A stretch of 64,000 nucleotides of DNA. It comes from Parcubacteria group bacterium (lineage in GTDB: Bacteria; Patescibacteriota; Minisyncoccia; UBA6257; UBA11618). The notes under the pieces are model-generated. The model was not told the origin of the DNA, ran no database searches, and saw nothing but the letters and a program-made list of their open reading frames with translations. Both the position numbers and the translations under genes were made by a program. Positions within the stretch are counted from its first letter, which is position 1. Each line of letters starts with the position of its first letter. Shown one piece after another: positions 2,268 to 28,611 of the stretch. The stretch lies in the NCBI GenBank assembly GCA_943357895.1, contig CALRGO010000002.1:25926-89925 (forward strand). Direction: 5' to 3'.

Positions 2268-3620
2268 TTGCCCACGCTTAAAGTCCCGCCGCAAAACATC
2301 GAGGCCGAAGAGGTTGTGCTAGGCGCGATAATGATCGACGCGGATGCCATTATCAAGGTGACGGACGTCCTTGCGCCCATTGATTTTTATTTACCCGCAC
2401 ATCGGCTTATTTTTGAGACGCAGGTTGCGCTCTTTGAACGGCACCAGCCGATAGACATTGTAAACCTCACGAACCGCATGAAAGAGGATGGTACGCTCGA
2501 CCGCGTAGGCGGGGCTTCGTACCTCTCTACCCTCATTGAGGGCGTGCCATCGTCTTCACACATCGTCCACTACGCCGGCCTCGTGAAAGAAAAGCGGGTA
2601 CTTCGCTCTATTATCGAAACGGCGGCCGAGGCGACGGAGGCGGCATTCAATCCGCAAAAGGAAGTCGAGTCCATTTTGGACGACGTCGAGCAGAAGATGT
2701 TCGCCATTTCGCAGGGGTCCGTGCGGCAGAAGTTCGTAGCAGTTAAGGACGAGCTAAAGAACGCCTATGAGCGAATTGAGCGCCTGCAAAGCGGCGACGG
2801 CGCTTTGCGCGGCGTCGGTACCGGCTTCCGCGAACTCGACAGTTGCCTTGGGGGGTTGCAGAAGTCGGACTTGGTAATCGTGGGTGCGCGCCCGTCTGTT
2901 GGTAAGACTACGTTCGTTATGGATATTGCGCGGCACGCTGCCATTAAGGAGGGGGTGGTTGTTGGCGTATTCTCGCTTGAAATGTCGCGCGATCAGGTCA
3001 TTGACCGCCTCATAGCGGCCGAATCGAATGTGGCTTTATGGCGGCTCCGTAACGGCAAAATCCAAGACGATACGGAATTTCAAATGATACAGGCGGGGCT
3101 CGACGTTCTTTCCCGCGCGCCGATATTCATAGACGATACCGCCGGCCCCACAATGCTCCAAATCAAGTCCATGGCGCGGCGGCTCCAGATGGAGCACGGG
3201 CTTGGGCTCCTCGTCGTCGATTATCTTCAGCTCATACAGCCGCGTACTAATAGCGATAATATGGTGCAGCAGATTACGGAAATCTCGCGTGCCCTGAAGG
3301 GCCTTGCGCGCGAACTAAATATCCCCGTGGTCGCGTTATCCCAACTTTCGCGTGAGGTGGATAAACGCGAAGTGAAGATCCCCCGCCTTTCGGATTTGCG
3401 CGAGTCAGGCTCGATAGAACAAGACGCAGACGTTGTTATGTTTTTGTACCGCAAGGACCGCGATAAGCTGAACCCCTCGCCCGAAGAGCAGAACACGGCG
3501 GAGGTGATTGTCGCTAAGCACCGCAACGGCGCCTTGATCAACACGAAGGTTAAGTTCGACCCCGACCGCGTAAGCTTTAGGGATATCGACCACGTGCACT
3601 CGAACAATAACGGTTTTTAA
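2268..3620 (+). CDS. dnaB: replicative DNA helicase DnaB
   Basis: N-terminal IEAEEVVLGAIMID motif, Walker A GARPSVGKT, RecA-like C-terminal domain; 450 aa. Confidence 0.9.
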   Translation: MPTLKVPPQNIEAEEVVLGAIMIDADAIIKVTDVLAPIDFYLPAHRLIFETQVALFERHQPIDIVNLTNRMKEDGTLDRVGGASYLSTLIEGVPSSSHIVHYAGLVKEKRVLRSIIETAAEATEAAFNPQKEVESILDDVEQKMFAISQGSVRQKFVAVKDELKNAYERIERLQSGDGALRGVGTGFRELDSCLGGLQKSDLVIVGARPSVGKTTFVMDIARHAAIKEGVVVGVFSLEMSRDQVIDRLIAAESNVALWRLRNGKIQDDTEFQMIQAGLDVLSRAPIFIDDTAGPTMLQIKSMARRLQMEHGLGLLVVDYLQLIQPRTNSDNMVQQITEISRALKGLARELNIPVVALSQLSREVDKREVKIPRLSDLRESGSIEQDADVVMFLYRKDRDKLNPSPEEQNTAEVIVAKHRNGALINTKVKFDPDRVSFRDIDHVHSNNNGF

Positions 3621-3621
3621 T

Positions 3622-4197
3622 ATGCTCCCCCGTTCTATACAGAAATTCATATCCGCCTTTGCCGCCTTGCCTTCTATCGGGCCGCGACAAGCGACGCGCT
3701 TGGCGTTTTATTTAGTGTCGTTAGGTTCGGCTTCGATAGTCGACATTGCGGATGCCGCGCGGGGCTTGGCGGCGCTCTCGACCTGCCCCGACTGCTTCTT
3801 TTTTTCCGAAGGGCCGGTATGCCCCTTCTGTGGTAACCCTGCACGGCGGAAGGATGTGCTAGCCGTCGTTGAGCGGCCGACAGACGTTATAGCAATAGAG
3901 GCAACTCGCAAGTTCAACGGCGTGTATTTGGTGCTCGGCGAACTTAAAAAGACGGGCGCATTGCAGCCGGAGCAGAAGCTTAAGCTCGAGCGTGGCAAGG
4001 CGCGCGGCCCGTTTAAAGAAATACTCTTAGCGCTCGACCAAACTACCTACGGCGACTTTAACGCGCAGACAATTACGAAAGAGCTTTCGGGCGTTACGGA
4101 AAAAATAACTCGCTTAGGCCGCGGCATCCCCACCGGCGGCGAAATAGAATTTGCCGACGAGGATACCTTGGGGAGCGCTATCGAGAAGAGAAGTTGA
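3622..4197 (+). CDS. recR: recombination protein RecR
   Basis: HhH N-terminus (PSIGPRQATRLAF), C4 zinc finger CPDC...CPFC, Toprim domain; 191 aa. Confidence 0.9.
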   Translation: MLPRSIQKFISAFAALPSIGPRQATRLAFYLVSLGSASIVDIADAARGLAALSTCPDCFFFSEGPVCPFCGNPARRKDVLAVVERPTDVIAIEATRKFNGVYLVLGELKKTGALQPEQKLKLERGKARGPFKEILLALDQTTYGDFNAQTITKELSGVTEKITRLGRGIPTGGEIEFADEDTLGSAIEKRS

Positions 4198-4265
4198 TTA
4201 GAACCGTATCATTATAAAGACGGTCGTCGTTATAATGATATGATCGGGTAGTGCTGAGTAAGCCG

Positions 4266-4414
4266 GCGCGCATATACTTCTCGGGAAACGTCCTCGCTGC
4301 TCTCCTGCGGAGCAGCGGGACTCGCTCTCAGCGGCGCAATCGCCTAAAAAGGCGATACCCAGAGCTGCGCCGCCTCCGAGATGTTCCCGATAAGCATATC
4401 CACGCCGTCTTTCC
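4266..4414. repeat. copy A of a diverged inverted structured element (inverted relative to copy B)
   Basis: Reverse complement shares identical 16-mers ggaaagacggcgtgga and ggaacatctcggaggc plus agctctgggta, gagagcga, gcgcgccggct with 5154-5373; nested hairpins 4331-4373. Confidence 0.5.
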
Positions 4415-4488
4415 GCTATGTCAGCGCCATCTAATTATTGTGGATAACTTTTAACGCCCGTTAGCTGGATTATGCAATACTTAGAAGT

Positions 4489-5125
4489 ATGAATAAAAAA
4501 TTCTTACTTATTTCGATTGCCGCCGGCACCTTGCTTGCGGGGGGGGGCTTCAGCAGATGTCGCGGATTCATATAGAGAATGCATAGATACTACCGATAGG
4601 GCTTATTGTGATGCCTTGTTTCCGAGAGAGTTTGTTTATGAAAATGGATCACGATTTGTTAGGGGAAGAGACGGTTTATATTTTTACGAGTACGTTGATA
4701 TTAATGGAAGGATTGTGCGTGATGAGCGTGCGGGTGCGGGATACCCTACCATAGAGTCTATTGTAGAAGATCTTAGTAGAGGTCCTTCGTTGCCGCCCGG
4801 TCACTATCGGTCTTGCCCTTGCGGACCCGCAACGATTTCTTCGAATTCTTGTGCGTCGTGTCCTCCTGCGTACTTCCCTCCCTCTACTTCAGTGCCTAGG
4901 CCGGAAGATTATATTTATTTAATGCATCGTCCGCGTCCCTTGCGAGTGACTCTCTTAAGTCCTGTAGCCCCCTCAAGGACTAGATATTCCCGTCCAAGAA
5001 TAACCCCCGGCACTCCTCCTAGTGTGAGTATTTTACCAACTTGGCTTCTTCGAAATTTATTAGGCAACTCGCCAACGATGGATAGCGGAAGCGGACTCGG
5101 CCCTCGCTCGGGAGGCGAGCGTTAA
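4489..5125 (+). CDS. secreted proline/cysteine-rich protein, reading frame interrupted by +1 frameshift in a G9 homopolymer (4539-4547)
   Basis: ATG at 4489 encodes signal peptide MNKKFLLISIAAGTLLAGG in frame 1, which stops after the G9 run; ORF 4517-5125 continues in frame 2 as ASADVADSYREC...; removing one G fuses them and gives an AxA signal peptidase site (GGASA/DV). Confidence 0.45.
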
Positions 5126-5153
5126 AGTTGCTTCTAGATTTTTATGTCATCGA

Positions 5154-5373
5154 GGAAAGACGGCGTGGACGTGTTTTGAGGAACATCTCGGAGGCCCGAT
5201 AGCTCTGGGTAATTCGCCGCAGCGAATTTATCGGGCCGAGAGCGAATGCCTTTTTTCCGCAGGTGGGGGCTTTCTCTAAATCCGTCGTACGGATTTAGCT
5301 AGAAAACCTTATGCAAAGCGCAGCGGAGCTAACCTTTAGCTGATGTTTCCGAAAAGCACGTGCGCGCCGGCTG
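5154..5373. repeat. copy B of the diverged inverted structured element
   Basis: See copy A; nested hairpin 5193-5237 (outer stem ggcccgata/tatcgggcc, inner attcgc/gcgaat) has the same architecture as 4331-4373 but different stem sequence; about 80 bp extra insertion with two small palindromes. Confidence 0.5.
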
Positions 5374-5402
5374 ATTAGGTGATGCGTATAATTTTATCAA
5401 TC

Positions 5403-5436
5403 AAAAAACCGGCTCAGGGTTCTGAGTCGGTTTTTT
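5403..5436. terminator. bidirectional intrinsic terminator between convergent genes
   Basis: A6-ccggctcag-ggtt-ctgagtcgg-T6 (one G-U pair); serves rplU on minus strand and upstream plus-strand gene. Confidence 0.6.
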
Positions 5437-5442
5437 CTTTTC

Positions 5443-5754
5443 CTATTTAATACCAGTTATCTCCACTTCGGTGAATTCTTGGCGGTGGCCTTTCTTCTTC
5501 TTATAGCGAGCTTTCGAGTGGTATTTGAATACAATTACTTTGCGTGCCCTGCCTTGCCCTACGAGCTTCGCCGTAACCGTTGCGCCGGTAACGAGCGGGG
5601 TGCCGACGATGACTTTACCGCCGTCTTCGGTTAAGAGAACCTCCTTAAAAATAACGGAGCCGTCGGCTTCGGGCACTATTTTTTCTATCTTCAGTTTTTC
5701 GCCAACGGCCACCTTGTACTGCTTGCCGCCGGTTTTTACAATTGCGAATGCCAT
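5443..5754 (-). CDS. rplU: 50S ribosomal protein L21
   Basis: MAFAIVKTGGKQYKVAVGEKLKIEK... canonical L21 N-terminus; 103 aa. Confidence 0.9.
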   Translation of the reverse strand: MAFAIVKTGGKQYKVAVGEKLKIEKIVPEADGSVIFKEVLLTEDGGKVIVGTPLVTGATVTAKLVGQGRARKVIVFKYHSKARYKKKKGHRQEFTEVEITGIK

Positions 5755-5766
5755 TTCTTTAGGTGA

Positions 5767-6102
5767 TTAGTTAACGGTAATAATACACGATATTGTAATT
5801 ACAATCAAGAGCGCTATAAAGGCGGTTACGGCGCTTGTAATACGCGCAAGGATAGGGTTTCTGCTCACGAGCACGCCCGCAAGGCATGCATTTAAACAGG
5901 TAATAATAGCGCCTGAAAATAACATATGGAGGGCATCATATTTTTCCCCGAGGAAATCCGCTCCCCGACCGCCCAAAAAGTGGATTATGATACGGCCTTC
6001 CGTATTCGCGAGCTTTACGTAATACAGGGAAAAGCCTATGAGGAGAGTGAACGCGGCGCTTGCGAAAAGCGCCGCATCCGCGTTTTTACGTAAATCATAC
6101 AT
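5767..6102 (-). CDS. small hypothetical integral membrane protein
   Basis: Start set at internal Met (MYDLRKNADAALFASAAFTLLIGF...) 4 nt after ddl stop; the longer ORF to 6210 would overlap ddl by about 100 nt; 3-4 predicted TM helices. Confidence 0.4.
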   Translation of the reverse strand: MYDLRKNADAALFASAAFTLLIGFSLYYVKLANTEGRIIIHFLGGRGADFLGEKYDALHMLFSGAIITCLNACLAGVLVSRNPILARITSAVTAFIALLIVITISCIITVN

Positions 6103-6106
6103 ACGC

Positions 6107-7267
6107 TTATTTCCCCCTCCCGAGTTTTTTAGACCAATCCGCGTGCGCAAGAATGCTCGAGGCGAAAGTGGATGTGAAGCCTTTTTTCTTTTTATTTTTT
6201 TCAAGCGCAAGCGTAATAAGCTTCTTTACAAGTTCTGGAAGCGCTACGCCGCTCTTTTCCCATAGGTGGTGGTAGAGTGTCCCTGGCAGAGGGTTGATTT
6301 CGTTCACATATAGTTTTTTTGATTCCTTATCGTAAAGGAAGTCCACGCGCGCGGTACCTGAGCATTCGAATTTTAAAAACACTTCTTTCGCAAGATTTTG
6401 TACGGCGGCCGTCGTCGCTTCTTCGAGCTCCGCGGGGATTATAAGGCTCTGCTTTGCGTTGCCGAGCTGGGCGCCGCCGCCCGAAATATATTTATCTTCG
6501 TACGAAAAAAAGTCTTCGGTAAATACCGATTCTTGCACTAAGGAGGCACGCGGTACGTCGTTGCCTATTACGGCACACGTGAGGTCGCAAACATTCGGCA
6601 CGCCTTCTTCAACTATTACTTTTTCATCGTAGTGGAAGGCGACATCGAGCGCAAAAGAAAGCTCCTTACCATTACGCACCTTAGCGATACCGATGGATGA
6701 GCCAAGTCGCGCGGGCTTTACGAAGAGCGGCCACGCAAGGCCCGTATTTATTTTTGTCACATAATCTTCCTTTTTAGCTTCCCAGTCAGATTTATAGAAG
6801 TAGATGAATTTGGTCGTGGGGAATCCCGCCTGTTCATATAGTTGTTTTGTTAACACCTTATCCATGGCGATGGCGCTTGCCGCTACGCCGCAGCCGACGT
6901 AGGGAATATCGAACATTTCAAAGAGTCCTTGCACGGTACCGTCTTCGCCGTTTTGGCCGTGGAATGCGGGGAATGCGACGTCGATTGTAATTGTTTTCCC
7001 GAATAATCCTTTTTGGTTAAAAACCATTTTTCCGCGGGATGATTCGAGGTCGAGATTCCATTTCGCGAGCGAAGAAAAATCACTTTGTTTTTTAAAGTTC
7101 GCTATATTATGCAGTTCGTCCCCTATGTGCCAGCTACCATCTTTACCAATATAAATTGCATGCGCATCAATACCAGCCTTTTTGAGGCCTGCAAGAATGA
7201 GGTGGCCGGTCAATATTGAGATGTCGTGTTCGGGGTTCTTACCTCCGAAAAATACGCCGATAGTCAT
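6107..7267 (-). CDS. ddl: D-alanine--D-alanine ligase
   Basis: MTIGVFFGGKNPEHDISILTG N-terminus, ATP-grasp fold, adjacent to murF; C-terminal Lys-rich extension. Confidence 0.85.
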   Translation of the reverse strand: MTIGVFFGGKNPEHDISILTGHLILAGLKKAGIDAHAIYIGKDGSWHIGDELHNIANFKKQSDFSSLAKWNLDLESSRGKMVFNQKGLFGKTITIDVAFPAFHGQNGEDGTVQGLFEMFDIPYVGCGVAASAIAMDKVLTKQLYEQAGFPTTKFIYFYKSDWEAKKEDYVTKINTGLAWPLFVKPARLGSSIGIAKVRNGKELSFALDVAFHYDEKVIVEEGVPNVCDLTCAVIGNDVPRASLVQESVFTEDFFSYEDKYISGGGAQLGNAKQSLIIPAELEEATTAAVQNLAKEVFLKFECSGTARVDFLYDKESKKLYVNEINPLPGTLYHHLWEKSGVALPELVKKLITLALEKNKKKKGFTSTFASSILAHADWSKKLGRGK

Positions 7268-25941: not shown

Positions 25942-27147
25942 ATGGAAGAACCTGAAAAGAAGCATCGTGATCACCGTGAATTAGGGCAGTTGCTTGATTT
26001 ATTTTCGTTCCACGACATCGCCCCCGGCGCTGCTTTTTGGCACCCCAACGGCATGACTATTTTTCGCGTACTTGAATCTGCCGCGCGCCAGATGAACGAC
26101 CGCGCGGGCTATAAAGAAATCTCGACGCCTATTATGGTGAAGAGCGACGTATTTAAAAAATCCGGTCACTGGGAACATTACCGCAAGAACATGTTCCACT
26201 TTGTGAACCCAACGGACGAAAACGAAGAGTTGGCAATAAAGCCGATGAACTGCCCCGAATCGACGTACGTGTTTAACGCTTCGACCCGCAGTTATCGTGA
26301 CATGCCTTTGCGGTTCGCTGAATTGGGGCGCTTACACCGTAACGAGCTTTCGGGAACGTTAGGTGGGCTCTTCCGCGTGCGGCAGATGACGATGGATGAC
26401 GCGCACGTATATTGCCGCCCCGACCAAGTAGAGACGGAGATTCGGCATATCGTGGACCTCACGATGCGTTTTTACGCCGTGTTCGGCTTCAAGCCGACGT
26501 GCGTCTTGGCAACCCGCCCCGAGAAGTTTATGGGCGATGCGGCCGATTGGGATAAGGCCGAGGCGGCTTTGAAGAGCGCCCTTGCGGCAAGCGGTATGGA
26601 ATATGAATTACAAGAAGGCGAAGGCGCCTTCTACGGCCCGAAGATCGAGTTCCACTTGCGTGACTCGCAGGACCGCGATTGGCAGATGGGTACGGCTCAG
26701 CTGGACCTCGTAATGCTTCCTAAACAGTTTGAGACGCAGTACGTGGACGAAAGCGGCGAAAAGAAAATGCCATGGGTGATCCACCGCGCCATATTCGGCA
26801 CCTTTGAGCGCTTCATCGGCATGATGCTCGAGCACACGGATGGCACGCTCCCCGTTTGGCTCGCGCCCGTACAAGCAACAGTGCTTTATGTGAACGACAG
26901 TCAGCGTGCCTATGCAGAGGAAGTGGTTGCAGCGCTCGTAGCGGCCGGCGTGCGTGCAGAACTAGATACGCAAAACGCCACCTTAGGTAAAAAAATCCGC
27001 GCAGCGGAAGTGCTGCGCATCCCCGTGATAGCCGTAATAGGCGAAAAGGAAGTCGCTGCCCGTACCGTAAGCGTACGCAACGACGTAAAGCCGTTCGATG
27101 TCTTCATCGCGGATACTGCTAAAGCGGCGAAGATTCCGATTATTTAG
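25942..27147 (+). CDS. thrS: threonine--tRNA ligase, N-terminally truncated (catalytic + anticodon-binding domains only)
   Basis: Begins at the HRDHRELGQLLDLF motif, which lies ~residue 240 of full-length ThrRS; class II motifs and C-terminal anticodon-binding domain present; no TGS or editing domain encoded upstream. Confidence 0.8.
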   Translation: MEEPEKKHRDHRELGQLLDLFSFHDIAPGAAFWHPNGMTIFRVLESAARQMNDRAGYKEISTPIMVKSDVFKKSGHWEHYRKNMFHFVNPTDENEELAIKPMNCPESTYVFNASTRSYRDMPLRFAELGRLHRNELSGTLGGLFRVRQMTMDDAHVYCRPDQVETEIRHIVDLTMRFYAVFGFKPTCVLATRPEKFMGDAADWDKAEAALKSALAASGMEYELQEGEGAFYGPKIEFHLRDSQDRDWQMGTAQLDLVMLPKQFETQYVDESGEKKMPWVIHRAIFGTFERFIGMMLEHTDGTLPVWLAPVQATVLYVNDSQRAYAEEVVAALVAAGVRAELDTQNATLGKKIRAAEVLRIPVIAVIGEKEVAARTVSVRNDVKPFDVFIADTAKAAKIPII

Positions 27148-27157
27148 TAATAGTAAA

Positions 27158-27191
27158 TAAAAAAACTAAGGAGCTCTTCCTTAGTTTTTTT
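27158..27191. terminator. bidirectional intrinsic terminator between thrS and gatB
   Basis: A8-ctaagga-gctct-tccttag-T7. Confidence 0.65.
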
Positions 27192-27201
27192 ATTCCTTTT
27201 T

Positions 27202-28611
27202 TTATTTAAGTAGACGTTCAAAAATTTCCCTAAGGAGGGCGGGGTTGCCGGTGCCTTTCAGTTCTTTCATTGCCTTACCTACTAAAAAGTGCAGGGATTC
27301 TAGTTTTCCTTTTTTGTAGTCTTCGAGTGCTTTGGGGTTTTCTGCGAGGATTTTTTGCGCCGTTTCTTCGAGTCCTGCCGCGTCTGAAACTTGGTGGAGG
27401 TTTTTTTCGGTAACCGTTGCTTCGGCTGTGGCACCGGTTTTTACCATATGTGTTAAGGCGTCTTTCGCGCCGCGACTACCTACTTCGCCTTTCGCTACCA
27501 TCGCTACGAGGGACGCGAAGTTAGCGGGCGTTAGTTTCAGACCCGTAAATTGCATGCCGTCTTTTTTCATCATTCCCCATAAGTCGCTCGTGAAGTAGTT
27601 GAGGAGTAAGGCGTAGTTGGGTGTGGCGTCGAGTTCTTTGAGTTCGCTTGCCGCTTCCTCAAAGAATTCTGCTGCTGCGCGGTCTTCGGTTACCACATAG
27701 GAATCCACCTCCTTCATGCCGTATTCATTAATAAAGCGCGCGCGCTTTTCGTGCGGTAGTTCAGGGATGGCCGCTTTAAGCGCTTCTAAATCGAAGGCGT
27801 CTGCATACATCGGCGGCAAGTCCGGCTCGGGGAAATAGCGGTAGTCGTGCGCATCTTCTTTCGTGCGCTGGCTTACGGTAATCCCCTTTTCCGCGTTCCA
27901 TCCGCGCGTTTCTTGAATTATTTTTTCACCTGAGTCGAGCGCTGCCGCGTGTCGCTTGTATTCGTATTCAATGGCGTCATGAACGGCCTTAAACGAATTG
28001 ATGTTTTTAACTTCAACTTTCGTGCCCATGTTTATAGAGATGTTGGCTTCCAAGCGCATGAGGCCTTTTTCCATATCAGCGTCGGACGTCCCCAAGTAGC
28101 GTAAAATGCGGCGCAGTTCTTCACCGAAGGCCGCAGCTTCTTCTGCTGTCCTAATATCCGGCTCTGTGACTATTTCCATAAGGGGCGCGCCCGCGCGGTT
28201 AAAATTAACGAGCGATTCGTTTCCAGTGTGCGTCAAGCTGCCCGCGTCTTCTTCTAAATGGATGCGCGTGATGCGGATGCCGTTCAAATTGCCACCTAAA
28301 ACGAGTGGTTCGTCGTACTGCGATATTTGGTAGCCCTTGGGTAGGTCGGGATAAAAATAGTTTTTGCGGTCGAACTTCGACCGGCCTTTAGGGAATACCG
28401 TGCCGCCCAAGGCCAAGCCGAGCTGGAGTACCAGTTCAACGGCCTTCTTATTAATGGTTGGCAGCGTGCCGAGGTGGCCCGTACAGACGGGGCAAACATT
28501 AACGTTCGGATGCGTTTCGTCGGGGTCGTTAACGCAGTCGCAGAACATCTTCGTGCGCGTTTTCAGTTCCACGTGGATTTCGAGACCGACGGTAAGTTGG
28601 CGTTCTTCCAT
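27202..28611 (-). CDS. gatB: Asp-tRNA(Asn)/Glu-tRNA(Gln) amidotransferase subunit B
   Basis: GLEIHVELKTRTKMFCDC N-terminus, GatB/YqeY C-terminal domain. Confidence 0.9.
   Translation of the reverse strand: MEERQLTVGLEIHVELKTRTKMFCDCVNDPDETHPNVNVCPVCTGHLGTLPTINKKAVELVLQLGLALGGTVFPKGRSKFDRKNYFYPDLPKGYQISQYDEPLVLGGNLNGIRITRIHLEEDAGSLTHTGNESLVNFNRAGAPLMEIVTEPDIRTAEEAAAFGEELRRILRYLGTSDADMEKGLMRLEANISINMGTKVEVKNINSFKAVHDAIEYEYKRHAAALDSGEKIIQETRGWNAEKGITVSQRTKEDAHDYRYFPEPDLPPMYADAFDLEALKAAIPELPHEKRARFINEYGMKEVDSYVVTEDRAAAEFFEEAASELKELDATPNYALLLNYFTSDLWGMMKKDGMQFTGLKLTPANFASLVAMVAKGEVGSRGAKDALTHMVKTGATAEATVTEKNLHQVSDAAGLEETAQKILAENPKALEDYKKGKLESLHFLVGKAMKELKGTGNPALLREIFERLLK

What the first reader, a model, noticed from the sequence alone, without database searches (positions are those of the whole stretch)
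4266..5373. Inverted pair of diverged structured elements with compensatory stem substitutions flanking a secreted-protein gene
Copy A (4266-4414) is the reverse complement of copy B (5154-5373). The two share exact 16-mers (ggaaagacggcgtgga, ggaacatctcggaggc) plus agctctgggta, gagagcga, ccgcagg and gcgcgccggct in the same order. Each has a nested hairpin enclosing the conserved single-stranded GCTCTGGGTA. Copy A has outer stem gcggcgca/tgcgccgc with inner tcgcc/ggcga. Copy B has outer ggcccgata/tatcgggcc with inner attcgc/gcgaat. The same architecture with different stem sequence is the signature of a selected RNA (or protein-bound DNA) structure rather than recent duplication. The copies bracket gene 4489-5125 with the same ends facing the gene, like recombination sites of an invertible cassette, or two ncRNA genes transcribed divergently or convergently. 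No recombinase is nearby.
Basis: seen in the sequence. Interest (0 to 1): 0.8.

Follow-up and report, generated by a model that had tools for sequence, protein, structure and literature searches.

The report
Structured repeats bracketing swappable gene cassettes
The two inverted copies belong to a previously uncatalogued family of about 165-base folded (three-armed) repeat elements in tiny-genome Patescibacteria; the elements sit in a fixed orientation at the borders of strain-variable accessory genes wedged between housekeeping genes.

Summary
Copy A (4258-4416, minus strand) and copy B (5152-5374, plus strand) are two diverged members of one family. I collected 19 copies from Patescibacteria (CPR) genomes and metagenomes. 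No copy matches anything in Rfam 15, phage, plasmid or viral collections.

All copies share one fold: a long closing helix, a three-way junction, a 9-nt invariant bulge (GCUCUGGGU) and invariant junction strands.
- 96% of cells form pairs, against 75% in shuffles.
- 42 of 51 pairs show changes on both sides.
- The fold is strand-specific: P1 has 43 G-U pairs on the sense strand and 10 on the antisense strand.

The 1.2-kb block (hairpin, copy A, cargo gene, copy B) is missing from strains whose flanks are 96-99% identical. Related genomes carry other cargo at the same site. A second site (thrS/gatB) is empty in this window. In relatives it holds two different cassettes with the same kind of borders.

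The sense 3' end faces a converging neighbour in 15 of 16 cases. The 5' end faces the accessory gene.

The best reading is that these are oriented border modules acting as a single-stranded form, probably RNA. Their function is inferred, not shown. The invertible-cassette idea is not supported.

The parts
4208..4239 (.). Palindromic hairpin ATCATT..AATGAT, lying outside the sense 3' end of copy A. It is part of the A-type border of the cassette.
   Evidence: Inverted repeat I6, 94% complementary. It is unique in the window. It lies beside A-type copies in L017, L033 and L029, and in L029 it is next to gatB rather than recR. The stems covary between loci.
4258..4416 (-). Copy A, sense strand = minus. 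P1 5' strand 4383-4416; J1/2 AUCUCGGA 4375-4382; P2 outer 5' strand 4366-4374; bulge GCUCUGGGU 4357-4365; P2 inner hairpin 4339-4356; P2 outer 3' strand 4330-4338; J2/3 GAGAGCGA 4322-4329; P3 4290-4321; P1 3' strand 4258-4289.
   Evidence: Coordinates. Fold -92.6 kcal/mol, z -6.8. Covariance-model hits of 163 and 162 bits. Sense strand 13.5 kcal/mol more stable than antisense.
4489..5125 (+). Cargo gene: an orphan protein with a signal-peptide-like N-terminus. It is out of frame in this window because of the G tract.
   Evidence: Frames. There is an intact 244-aa orthologue, P0002 (60% identity), at the same site in L017/L018. No Pfam, NCBIfam or PADLOC match. The source pipeline called no gene here on the window's own contig (L001).
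4539..4547 (+). Homopolymeric tract of 9 G inside the signal-peptide codons. Probably a slipped-strand on/off switch.
   Evidence: 9 G here (out of frame), 10 G in L005, 8 G (in frame) in L017. The unrelated cargo of L023 also has 9 G in its signal peptide.
5152..5374 (+). Copy B, sense strand = plus, starting 27 nt after the cargo stop codon. P1 5' strand 5152-5184; J1/2 5185-5192; P2 outer 5' strand 5193-5201; bulge 5202-5210; P2 inner hairpin 5211-5228; P2 outer 3' strand 5229-5237; J2/3 5238-5245; P3 with about 67 extra nt 5246-5344; P1 3' strand 5345-5374.
   Evidence: Coordinates. Fold -96.6 kcal/mol, z -3.8. Covariance-model hits of 132 and 145 bits. The P3 insert is shared with L027, with compensatory changes.
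5403..5436 (.). Bidirectional intrinsic terminator of recR/rplU. It is ancestral to the site and not part of the insertion.
   Evidence: Terminator scan. It is homologous to the terminator in the empty site of relative L039 and to the one in L017.
27148..27201 (.). Empty state of a second cassette site, between convergent thrS (25942-27147) and gatB (27202-28611). It holds only a bidirectional terminator.
   Evidence: The same site is occupied by copy/cargo/copy cassettes in L023 and L029.

Best explanation
**Shown.**
- Copies A and B are members of a multi-copy family of about 165-nt elements in Patescibacteria.
- The conserved unit is a fold, not a sequence. It has a roughly 26-bp closing helix with a variable base. 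It has a three-way junction with invariant strands AUCUCGGA and GAGAGCGA.
- One arm carries an invariant 9-nt bulge (GCUCUGGGU). The other arm ends in a GCNG loop.
- The fold is favoured on one strand.
- The elements sit at the borders of accessory genes inserted between housekeeping genes, and their polarity is fixed. The sense 5' end faces the accessory gene. The sense 3' end faces the 3' end of the neighbouring core gene.
- Whole cassettes are present, absent or different among close relatives.
- SNP density is raised right beside the cassette. This fits exchange by homologous recombination in the flanks.

**Inferred.**
- The active form is RNA made by transcription running outward from the inserted DNA.
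- Copy B would be the 3' UTR of the cargo mRNA.
- Copy A would be made by divergent or antisense transcription from the cargo promoter region.
- The compact fold, with its long double-stranded helix, would then end, process or stabilise these outward transcripts. It might do this as an RNase III-type or protein-bound 3' structure. That would shield the convergent essential genes from antisense transcription and fix the cargo mRNA 3' end.
- The conserved blocks would also give portable homology for swapping cassettes.

**Confidence.** That this is a real, strand-specific, selected structure marking cassette borders: about 0.85. That the RNA insulator / 3'-end mechanism is correct: about 0.35-0.45.
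For: **Family and fold**
- 19 copies found.
- 96.2% of cells paired against 75.2 +/- 0.8 in shuffles, with 0 of 500 shuffles as high. 42 of 51 pairs changed on both sides. Slid controls 35-50%.
- P2 outer stem canonical in 162 of 162 cells. Its strands pair at only 65% with the partner strands of other copies.

**Strand**
- Sense strand more stable in 17 of 18 copies.
- P1 has 43 G-U pairs against 10, and summed energy of -634 against -454 kcal/mol.
- This holds for 4 of the 5 copies whose P1 sequence is unrelated to the others.
- A different hairpin element at the same site (L046) folds equally on both strands.

**Insertion**
- The recR-rplU spacer is 1245 bp here. It is 29 bp in strains with identical RecR and L21.
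- Flanks are 96-99% identical, but there are 20-24 mismatches in the last 200 bp of recR.
- The same site holds different content in L017, L033 and L045.
- thrS/gatB is empty here and occupied by different cargo in L023 and L029.

**Polarity**
- From the gene maps, the sense 3' end converges on the neighbouring gene in 15 of 16 determinable cases. Neighbours include recR, rplU, thrS, gatB, htpX, rny and jag.
- In L023 and on the thrS side of L029, the elements lie 15-28 nt from the neighbours' stop codons with no other terminator.

**Possible tertiary contact**
- L023 copy B has the bulge change U->A together with the loop change A->U.

**Analogy**
- Neisseria Correia elements bind RNase III and alter expression of neighbouring genes (abstract of PMC2649163).
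Against: - No expression data of any kind were available, so RNA is inferred only from the strand asymmetry.
- No promoter-like box lies at a fixed distance upstream of the sense 5' end, and no U tract follows the 3' end.
- Ten of 16 copies have no co-directional gene upstream. Their sense transcript would have to come from divergent or antisense initiation.
- A simple terminator would suffice for insulation. The idea does not explain why about 35 unpaired nucleotides are invariant.
- The copies were found with an exact pattern. That inflates the apparent sequence conservation, and the copies are related rather than independent.
- The alignment behind one search was fitted to the structure.
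Confidence: 0.45

Rival explanations
1. The elements are the ends of a non-autonomous mobile DNA cassette. A trans-acting enzyme moves it through a single-stranded intermediate of sense polarity (ssDNA or RNA) and recognises the folded junction and bulge. On this view the fold is selected for mobility, not for any local function.
For: - There are several copies per genome. One MAG has four copies on three contigs.
- Nearly identical cores occur in different lineages and sites.
- Arms and helices are mixed in a mosaic among copies.
- Inverted copies bracket different cargo. The cassette lies in either orientation at thrS/gatB: the A-type end is next to thrS in L023 and next to gatB in L029.
- The sense-strand bias is as strong in copies that lack an upstream co-directional gene.
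- Invariant loops would suit protein recognition.
Against: - The outermost part of the element (the base of P1) is the least conserved, whereas transposon termini are normally the most conserved.
- No target-site duplication or sharp common boundary was found.
- No transposase, recombinase or reverse transcriptase lies in any of the 14 loci that carry copies.
- No copies occur in viral, phage or plasmid collections.
- The raised SNP density in the flanks fits plain homologous exchange.
Confidence: 0.25
2. They are free-standing small RNA genes (paralogues) made from their own promoters. Like tRNA genes, they merely serve as landmarks or hot spots next to which foreign genes accumulate.
For: - Strand-specific fold.
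- Conserved core with variable peripheral helices, as in functional RNAs.
- A TATAAT or AATAAT box lies about 8-10 nt upstream of the sense start in a few copies: L023 copy A, the L029 copy at 3726, and L025.
Against: - Promoter-like boxes are not at a constant position and are absent from several copies, including window copy A.
- No terminator follows the sense 3' end. In L023 and on the thrS side of L029, that end abuts the neighbour's stop codon (15-28 nt).
- The elements are absent together with the cargo in close relatives. They therefore travel with the cassette rather than waiting at the site.
Confidence: 0.1
3. They are structure-specific recombination sites, working like integron attC sites. 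A dedicated recombinase encoded elsewhere would insert and exchange cargo through them.
For: - Different cargo lies between the same kind of borders at the same sites.
- The fold is conserved, not the sequence, and one strand is favoured, as for attC.
- AAC...GUU sits at the top of P1.
Against: - The conserved sequence lies at the junction, not at the base of the hairpin.
- The R box pattern RYYYAAC/GTTRRRY is not met: GAGGAAC/GUUUCCG.
- Copies are inverted around one gene rather than direct in arrays.
- No integrase gene in any locus.
- Cargo genes carry their own promoters.
Confidence: 0.07
4. The pair forms the arms of an invertible switch that flips the cargo gene (one of the first reader's alternatives).
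For: - Inverted orientation, with shared exact 16-mers.
- Contigs of three assemblies break inside copy B.
Against: - The same cargo polarity relative to A-type and B-type ends in 4 of 4 cassettes.
- No A/B chimeric closing helices in the window or in L023.
- All spanning contigs agree in orientation.
- The two copies of every pair belong to different stem subtypes, which lowers homology.
- Single copies exist.
- No invertase nearby.
Confidence: 0.03

Closest known systems
Correia repeat-enclosed elements (CREE/NEMIS) and 'minimal mobile elements' of Neisseria
   Same: - Both are small multi-copy intergenic repeats that fold into hairpins when transcribed and sit beside variable genes.
- CREE are reported to bind RNase III and to alter expression of neighbouring genes (abstract of PMC2649163).
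- Minimal mobile elements are variable gene regions between fixed conserved flanking genes, exchanged by homologous recombination in those flanks (PMC3787668). That matches the recR/rplU and thrS/gatB sites here.
   Different: - CREE are MITE-like, with conserved 26-bp terminal inverted repeats and a TA duplication (my recollection, not tested).
- Here the termini are the variable part and no duplication was found.
- The conserved part here is a three-way junction with invariant loops, extensive covariation and a one-strand bias.
BOX / RUP / SPRITE repeats of Streptococcus pneumoniae
   Same: BOX is modular and mosaic. These repeats are predicted to form stable RNA structures, often lie at the 3' ends of genes, and are co-transcribed with neighbours. 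They have been proposed to act as terminators or regulators (PMC3049150).
   Different: - The terminal repeats of BOX and RUP resemble those of known IS elements that may mobilise them (PMC3049150). No such partner is known here.
- Here the architecture is one fixed three-way junction rather than a variable number of modules.
- Here the elements occur as oriented borders of gene cassettes.
REP/BIME elements (with RAYT transposases) of proteobacteria
   Same: They are structured extragenic palindromes placed just after stop codons, often between convergent genes. Different types combine into mosaics. They are thought to be recognised as folded single strands and to protect mRNA 3' ends (established knowledge, from memory).
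   Different: - REPs are simple hairpins of about 35 nt with a conserved 5' GTAG. These elements are branched, about 165 nt long, and have different conserved motifs.
- Whether a RAYT-like gene is present was not tested.
Integron attC sites
   Same: Recognition is by fold rather than sequence. One strand is the active one. They are associated with exchangeable single-gene cassettes.
   Different: - The conserved boxes of attC lie at the base of the hairpin. Here conservation is at the junction.
- attC sites are direct repeats in arrays next to an integrase, and their cassettes lack promoters. None of this holds here.
Orphan structured RNA motifs of Rfam (classes found by comparative genomics with unknown function)
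   Same: This is a conserved multi-helix fold with covariation, invariant junction nucleotides, and no known function.
   Different: No family of Rfam 15 matches. The best score on a copy is 19 bits for gntR-DTE against a gathering score of 63.6, and that hit is absent from another copy.

Membership tests
Any Rfam 15 RNA family | Covariance-model score at or above the family's gathering score | tested here: not met
   Whole-window scan found only two tRNAs. Permissive scans of the region and of single copies gave at best gntR-DTE at 19.3 bits against a gathering score of 63.6. That hit was not reproduced on L029.
MITE (miniature inverted-repeat transposable element) | Terminal inverted repeats conserved in sequence among copies (the transposase binding sites) | tested here: not met
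   The base of P1, i.e. the termini, has unrelated sequences in L019, L020, L021, L027 and L034, while pairing is kept. Conservation is highest in the centre.
MITE (miniature inverted-repeat transposable element) | Target-site duplication flanking the insertion | tested here: inconclusive
   Occupied and empty sites were compared. No consistent duplication was seen, but the exact boundaries could not be fixed because the spacers differ.
MITE (miniature inverted-repeat transposable element) | A related autonomous element with a transposase | tested here: inconclusive
   None in the roughly 120 kb of loci that carry copies. Whole genomes could not be searched.
Integron attC site | R''/R' boxes RYYYAAC ... 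GTTRRRY at the base of the hairpin | tested here: not met
   The only AAC...GTT lies at the top of P1, as GAGGAAC/GTTTCCG, with the wrong purine/pyrimidine pattern. The hairpin base is variable.
Integron attC site | Direct repeats in a cassette array next to an intI integrase and a Pc promoter | tested here: not met
   Copies are inverted around a single gene. There is no integrase. Cargo genes have their own promoters.
Invertible DNA switch (inverton) | Both orientations of the segment present in a population | tested here: not met
   All contigs that span the block have one orientation. Read-level data were not available.
Invertible DNA switch (inverton) | An invertase gene nearby | tested here: not met
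   Neighbours are dnaK, grpE, cysS, dnaB, recR, rplU, ddl, murF and others. No recombinase domains.
Intrinsic (Rho-independent) terminator | G+C-rich hairpin directly followed by a U tract | tested here: not met
   Scans report no terminator at the ends of the elements. The longest T run within 40 nt after the sense 3' end is 2-5.
Type I toxin-antitoxin repeats (Sib/Ibs-like) | A conserved small hydrophobic ORF on the strand opposite the RNA | tested here: not met
   Arm lengths differ by 2 or 4 nt among copies, so no reading frame is kept. The 67-aa ORF at 4251-4454 is specific to copy A. By inspection of the sequences, the short antisense ORFs starting at the invariant AUG differ in length and are not hydrophobic.
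Minimal mobile element (Neisseria sense): variable region between fixed conserved flanking genes | Different gene content between the same flanking genes in close relatives, with signs of homologous exchange in the flanks | tested here: met
   The recR/rplU site is empty, or holds the cargo gene, or a 95-aa gene, or other elements. thrS/gatB is empty or holds two different cargoes. SNP density is raised next to the cassette. Definition taken from PMC3787668.

The most novel reading that the evidence does not exclude
The sense-strand fold is a new class of functional RNA, for example a self-processing ribozyme or the scaffold of a ribonucleoprotein. It would define or mobilise single-gene accessory cassettes in Patescibacteria. 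The invariant junction strands and 9-nt bulge would form its active core, held together by a bulge-to-loop tertiary contact. A variant of this reading is that the folded 3' ends of single-stranded cassette DNA prime or protect the cassette during uptake, in the manner of hairpin inverted terminal repeats.
Probability: 0.15. Interest if true: 0.85.

Novelty: new variant of a known kind. Interest (0 to 1): 0.62.

Why it matters
Patescibacteria make up a large share of bacterial diversity, have very small genomes, and have almost no described non-coding elements.

This family has unusually clean covariation: 42 covarying pairs from only 19 copies. It has an invariant unpaired core and a strict orientation at the borders of strain-variable genes. 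Those genes include likely phase-variable secreted proteins and a sigma factor.

If the elements are RNAs, they form a new structured RNA class with a testable role in insulating or processing transcripts of newly acquired genes. If they are recombination or mobility signals, they point to an unknown way in which these symbionts exchange surface and regulatory genes.

Either way, the covariance model gives a ready marker for finding accessory-gene hot spots in these genomes.

Tried and rejected
- **Rfam.** Gathering-threshold and permissive scans found nothing. The weak gntR-DTE hit is spurious, and the L20-leader hit covers only the terminator at 5403-5436.
- **Other copies in the window.** None beyond A and B.
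- **Viral contigs (two patterns), phage and plasmid collections.** No matches. The first viral pattern required GG after CGGA and would have missed most subtypes, so I repeated the scan.
- **Pattern-scan false positives.** L022, L024, L028, L031 and L032 were rejected with the covariance model.
- **Cargo function.** No Pfam, NCBIfam or PADLOC match for the window cargo or most other cargoes. Only the L029 cargo matches, as a sigma-70 family protein.
- **Promoter idea.** I looked for a fixed -10 box upstream of the sense start and a U tract downstream. Neither is consistent across copies.
- **Small conserved ORF on either strand.** Rejected because arm lengths vary by non-multiples of 3.
- **GCUCU (bulge) pairing with AGAGC (J2/3).** RNAalifold chose this helix. 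Both segments are invariant, so there is no evidence for it, and it competes with the fully covarying 9-bp outer stem. I treated it as a possible alternative or tertiary pairing only.
- **Precise insertion boundaries and target duplication.** Not resolvable. TATCAWT occurs at both ends in the window and L017 but not in L029.
- **More relatives of the recR site (seven RecR homologues).** Mostly empty sites or other elements, plus one diverged copy in L045.
- **GatB look-up.** It was repeated successfully.
- **Literature searches for a prior description in Patescibacteria or Saccharibacteria.** Nothing relevant found.
Full report
**1. The observation**

The region lies between recR (3622-4197, +) and rplU (5443-5754, -), which converge.

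The two 16-mers occur exactly twice in 64 kb, once per copy on opposite strands. Shuffles give about 0.5 matches even when 3 mismatches are allowed. The nested stems and the unpaired GCUCUGGGU are as described.

It pairs GACGGCGUGGA... at one end with ...UGCGCGCCGGC at the other. As a result each copy folds on its own: -92.6 kcal/mol (z -6.8) for A and -96.6 kcal/mol (z -3.8) for B.

Full extents are 4258-4416 (A, sense = minus) and 5152-5374 (B, sense = plus).

The 'gene' between them is interrupted by a frameshift at a run of 9 G (4539-4547).

**2. Not a known RNA and not confined to this locus**

Rfam 15 finds only two tRNAs in the window. It finds nothing on the copies even with permissive settings.

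One exact-pattern scan each of the genome and metagenome collections returned 18 stretches, counting L026, which is the same record as L018. Twelve of these are true members and five are chance hits, as judged with a covariance model.

Adding the window and an orthologous locus gives 18 close copies, plus one diverged copy in L045.
- The genomes carrying them are labelled Saccharibacteria and Harrisonbacteria.
- The metagenomic copies come partly from groundwater samples (Hainich H51).
- The window's RecR has its nearest named relatives in Patescibacteria.
- There are no matches in viral contigs, phage genomes or plasmids.

Because the scans needed exact motifs, they sampled only the best-conserved part of the family. 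L045 shows that more diverged members exist.

**3. Architecture and evidence for selection on the fold**

On the sense strand every copy reads as follows.
- **P1:** about 26 bp. The top, GGAAC/GUUUCC, is conserved and the base is variable.
- **J1/2:** AUCUCGGA.
- **P2:** a 9-bp outer stem, then the bulge GCUCUGGGU, then an inner hairpin of 7-9 bp. No nucleotides lie between the inner and outer stems on the 3' side.
- **J2/3:** GAGAGCGA.
- **P3:** 4 bp, a bulged A, 8 bp and a GCNG loop.
- **P1 3' strand:** follows P3 directly.

The P2 outer stem uses six different sequences yet is canonical in 162 of 162 cells. Its 5' strands pair with the 3' strands of other copies at only 65%. There are 13 different inner hairpins and 14 different P3 arms, all with the same shape.

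On an alignment made with a model carrying my structure:
- 96.2% of 951 cells pair, against 75.2 +/- 0.8% in shuffles (0 of 500 as high).
- 42 of 51 pairs have changes on both sides.
- Sliding the partners by 1-3 columns gives 35-50%.

Three caveats apply. The alignment is fitted to the structure. The copies are related. The arms recombine as blocks, so the number of independent events is smaller than the cell counts suggest.

One possible tertiary contact emerged. CUG in the bulge may pair with CAG in the P3 loop. In L023 copy B, U->A in the bulge coincides with A->U in the loop. L027 has a wobble-compatible change, and L017 copy A has an unmatched one.

**4. Strand**

The sense strand folds better than its complement in 17 of 18 copies, typically by 10-20 kcal/mol.

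The asymmetry sits mostly in P1. There the sense strand has 43 G-U pairs against 10, and summed energy of -634 against -454 kcal/mol. The sense strand is favoured in 16 of 17 copies, including four of the five whose P1 sequence is unrelated to the rest.

A different long-hairpin element at the same site in L046 folds equally on both strands, as a plain DNA palindrome should. The selected form is therefore a single strand of sense polarity. RNA is the simplest reading, and single-stranded DNA is not excluded.

**5. Genomic behaviour**

*The recR/rplU site.* Strains whose RecR and L21 proteins are identical to the window's have only 29 bp between the two genes. Their flanks are 96-99% identical in DNA.
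- Mismatches pile up right next to the block: 20-24 in the last 200 bp of recR, against 0-3 per 250 bp further out. This is the signature of import by homologous recombination.
- The terminator at 5403-5436 is homologous to the one in an empty relative (L039). The block therefore lies between the recR stop codon and the ancestral terminator.
- At this site, L017 has the same hairpin / copy A / cargo / copy B arrangement, with an intact cargo gene.
- L033 has the hairpin and copy A followed by an unrelated 95-aa gene with a strong sigma-70-type promoter.
- L045 has a diverged copy.
- L046-L048 have a different hairpin element.
- Several other relatives have an empty site.

*The thrS/gatB site.* This second site is empty in the window (27148-27201, terminator only).
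- In L023, whose ThrS and GatB are 94-95% identical, it holds copy / 377-aa Cys-rich protein with a signal-peptide-like N-terminus / copy.
- In L029 it holds copy / sigma-70 family protein / copy. Here the A-type end, with the same ATCATT hairpin, lies next to gatB instead of thrS.

*Rules across cassettes.*
- In all four paired cassettes the cargo runs from the A-type end to the B-type end.
- The two copies of a pair always belong to different stem subtypes.
- Across all copies, the sense 3' end converges on the neighbouring gene in 15 of 16 determinable cases. Neighbours include recR, rplU, thrS, gatB, htpX, rny and jag. The exception is L025, upstream of infC.
- The sense 5' end faces either the start of a diverging accessory gene (10 cases) or the stop of a co-directional one (7 cases, counting L045) (gene maps).
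- In L023 and on the thrS side of L029, the elements lie 15-28 nt from the neighbours' stop codons with no other terminator.

**6. Mechanism**

*Shown:* a strand-specific, selected fold that marks the borders of exchangeable accessory-gene cassettes, in fixed polarity.

*Inferred, my preferred reading (about 0.4):* the fold acts as RNA in transcripts that run outward from the inserted DNA.
- Copy B is the cargo's 3' UTR.
- Copy A would catch divergent or antisense transcription from the cargo promoter region.
- The roughly 26-bp helix plus the compact junction would end, process or protect these RNAs.
- The convergent essential genes would then not be hit by antisense transcription, and the cargo mRNA would get a defined 3' end.

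This explains the outward polarity on both sides, the one-strand bias, and the loss of ordinary terminators in L023. It resembles what is reported for Correia elements, which bind RNase III (abstract of PMC2649163), and what is proposed for pneumococcal BOX/SPRITE repeats (PMC3049150).

*Weak points:*
- No expression data.
- No fixed promoter or U tract.
- No reason why about 35 unpaired nucleotides must be invariant.

*Main rival (about 0.25):* the elements are ends of a non-autonomous mobile cassette, recognised as a folded single strand by an enzyme encoded elsewhere. This would explain the invariant loops and the mosaic spread. Against it, the termini are the least conserved part, no duplication or partner enzyme was found, and the flank pattern fits plain homologous exchange.

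The other readings fit less well: free-standing sRNA genes, attC-like sites and an invertible switch (see the rival explanations).

**7. Comparison and novelty**

The sites meet the definition of Neisseria 'minimal mobile elements' (PMC3787668). In lifestyle the elements resemble CREE, BOX and REP repeats.

They fail the defining tests for MITEs (conserved termini), attC sites, invertons, intrinsic terminators and every Rfam family. I found no description in the searchable literature.

I rate this a new variant of a known kind: interspersed structured repeats at variable loci. The chance that it is a genuinely new functional RNA class is about 0.15.

**8. Verdict**

Its 'selected structure' reading is supported. 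Its 'invertible cassette' reading is not. Interest 0.62.

Noticed in passing
window 4539-4547; L005 3927-3936; L017 474-481; L023 3650-3658: The cargo gene has a G tract inside its signal-peptide codons. Its length differs between assemblies: 9 G here and 10 G in L005 (both out of frame), 8 G in L017 (in frame). The unrelated cargo of L023 also carries 9 G in its signal peptide. This looks like slipped-strand phase variation of secreted proteins.
   Followed up: partly
window 4208-4239; L017 144-175; L029 2394-2423; L033 186-217: A palindromic hairpin ATCATT..AATGAT with covarying stems accompanies A-type copies on their outer side. In L029 it is at a different genomic site (next to gatB). It has no U tract. 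It may be a protein-binding site or a further structural module of the cassette border.
   Followed up: partly
window 27148-27201: The thrS/gatB spacer holds only a bidirectional terminator here. In relatives L023 and L029 it holds two different cassettes bordered by the same element family, so it is a second hot spot seen in its empty state.
   Followed up: yes
L046 4588-4775; L047 about 1070-1250; L048 about 2990-3200: A different family of long imperfect-palindrome elements occupies the recR/rplU spacer in more distant relatives. Shared motif: GCCGACAGG(G)AAAA ... GA(A/C)TCGACC ... GGGACTCATACA. It folds equally well on both strands, unlike the three-way-junction family.
   Followed up: partly
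L045 4577-4744 (-): A diverged member of the family lies just after recR in a 70%-identity relative: 44 bits, J1/2 GUAUCGGAGG, bulge GCUUGGU, J2/3 GAGAUCGA, and a poor closing helix. The family is therefore older and broader than the exact-pattern scans show.
   Followed up: partly
window 2500-6300 compared with L002, L003, L004, L006: Sequence divergence between strains is patchy. Some blocks have 10-56 mismatches per 250 bp (e.g. 2500-3000, 5750-6250) next to blocks with 0-3. This indicates frequent homologous recombination in the population.
   Followed up: no
L005 end (= window about 5192), L011 end (= window about 5234), L013 start (= window 5343): Three independent assemblies break their contigs inside copy B. 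This is expected if near-identical copies exist elsewhere in those genomes, or if strains differ there.
   Followed up: no
window 4251-4454 (+): A 67-aa ORF spans the whole of copy A on the antisense strand. It is not conserved in other copies, because arm lengths differ by non-multiples of 3, so it is very likely spurious.
   Followed up: yes
L029 2612-2618 and 2649-2677; L033 489-520: Cargo genes bring their own strong sigma-70-type promoters: TTGACA-17-TATATT in L029 and TTGACT-17-TATATT in L033. L029 also has a run of 7 C between the element and the promoter.
   Followed up: no
L019, L020, L023 (MAG CAYTBX01): The MAG that is 94-95% identical to the window in ThrS and GatB is titled 'Candidatus Saccharibacteria'. 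The nearest named RecR homologues, however, are from Harrisonbacteria, Jorgensenbacteria and 'Patescibacteria group'. The phylum-level label of the window's organism is uncertain.
   Followed up: no
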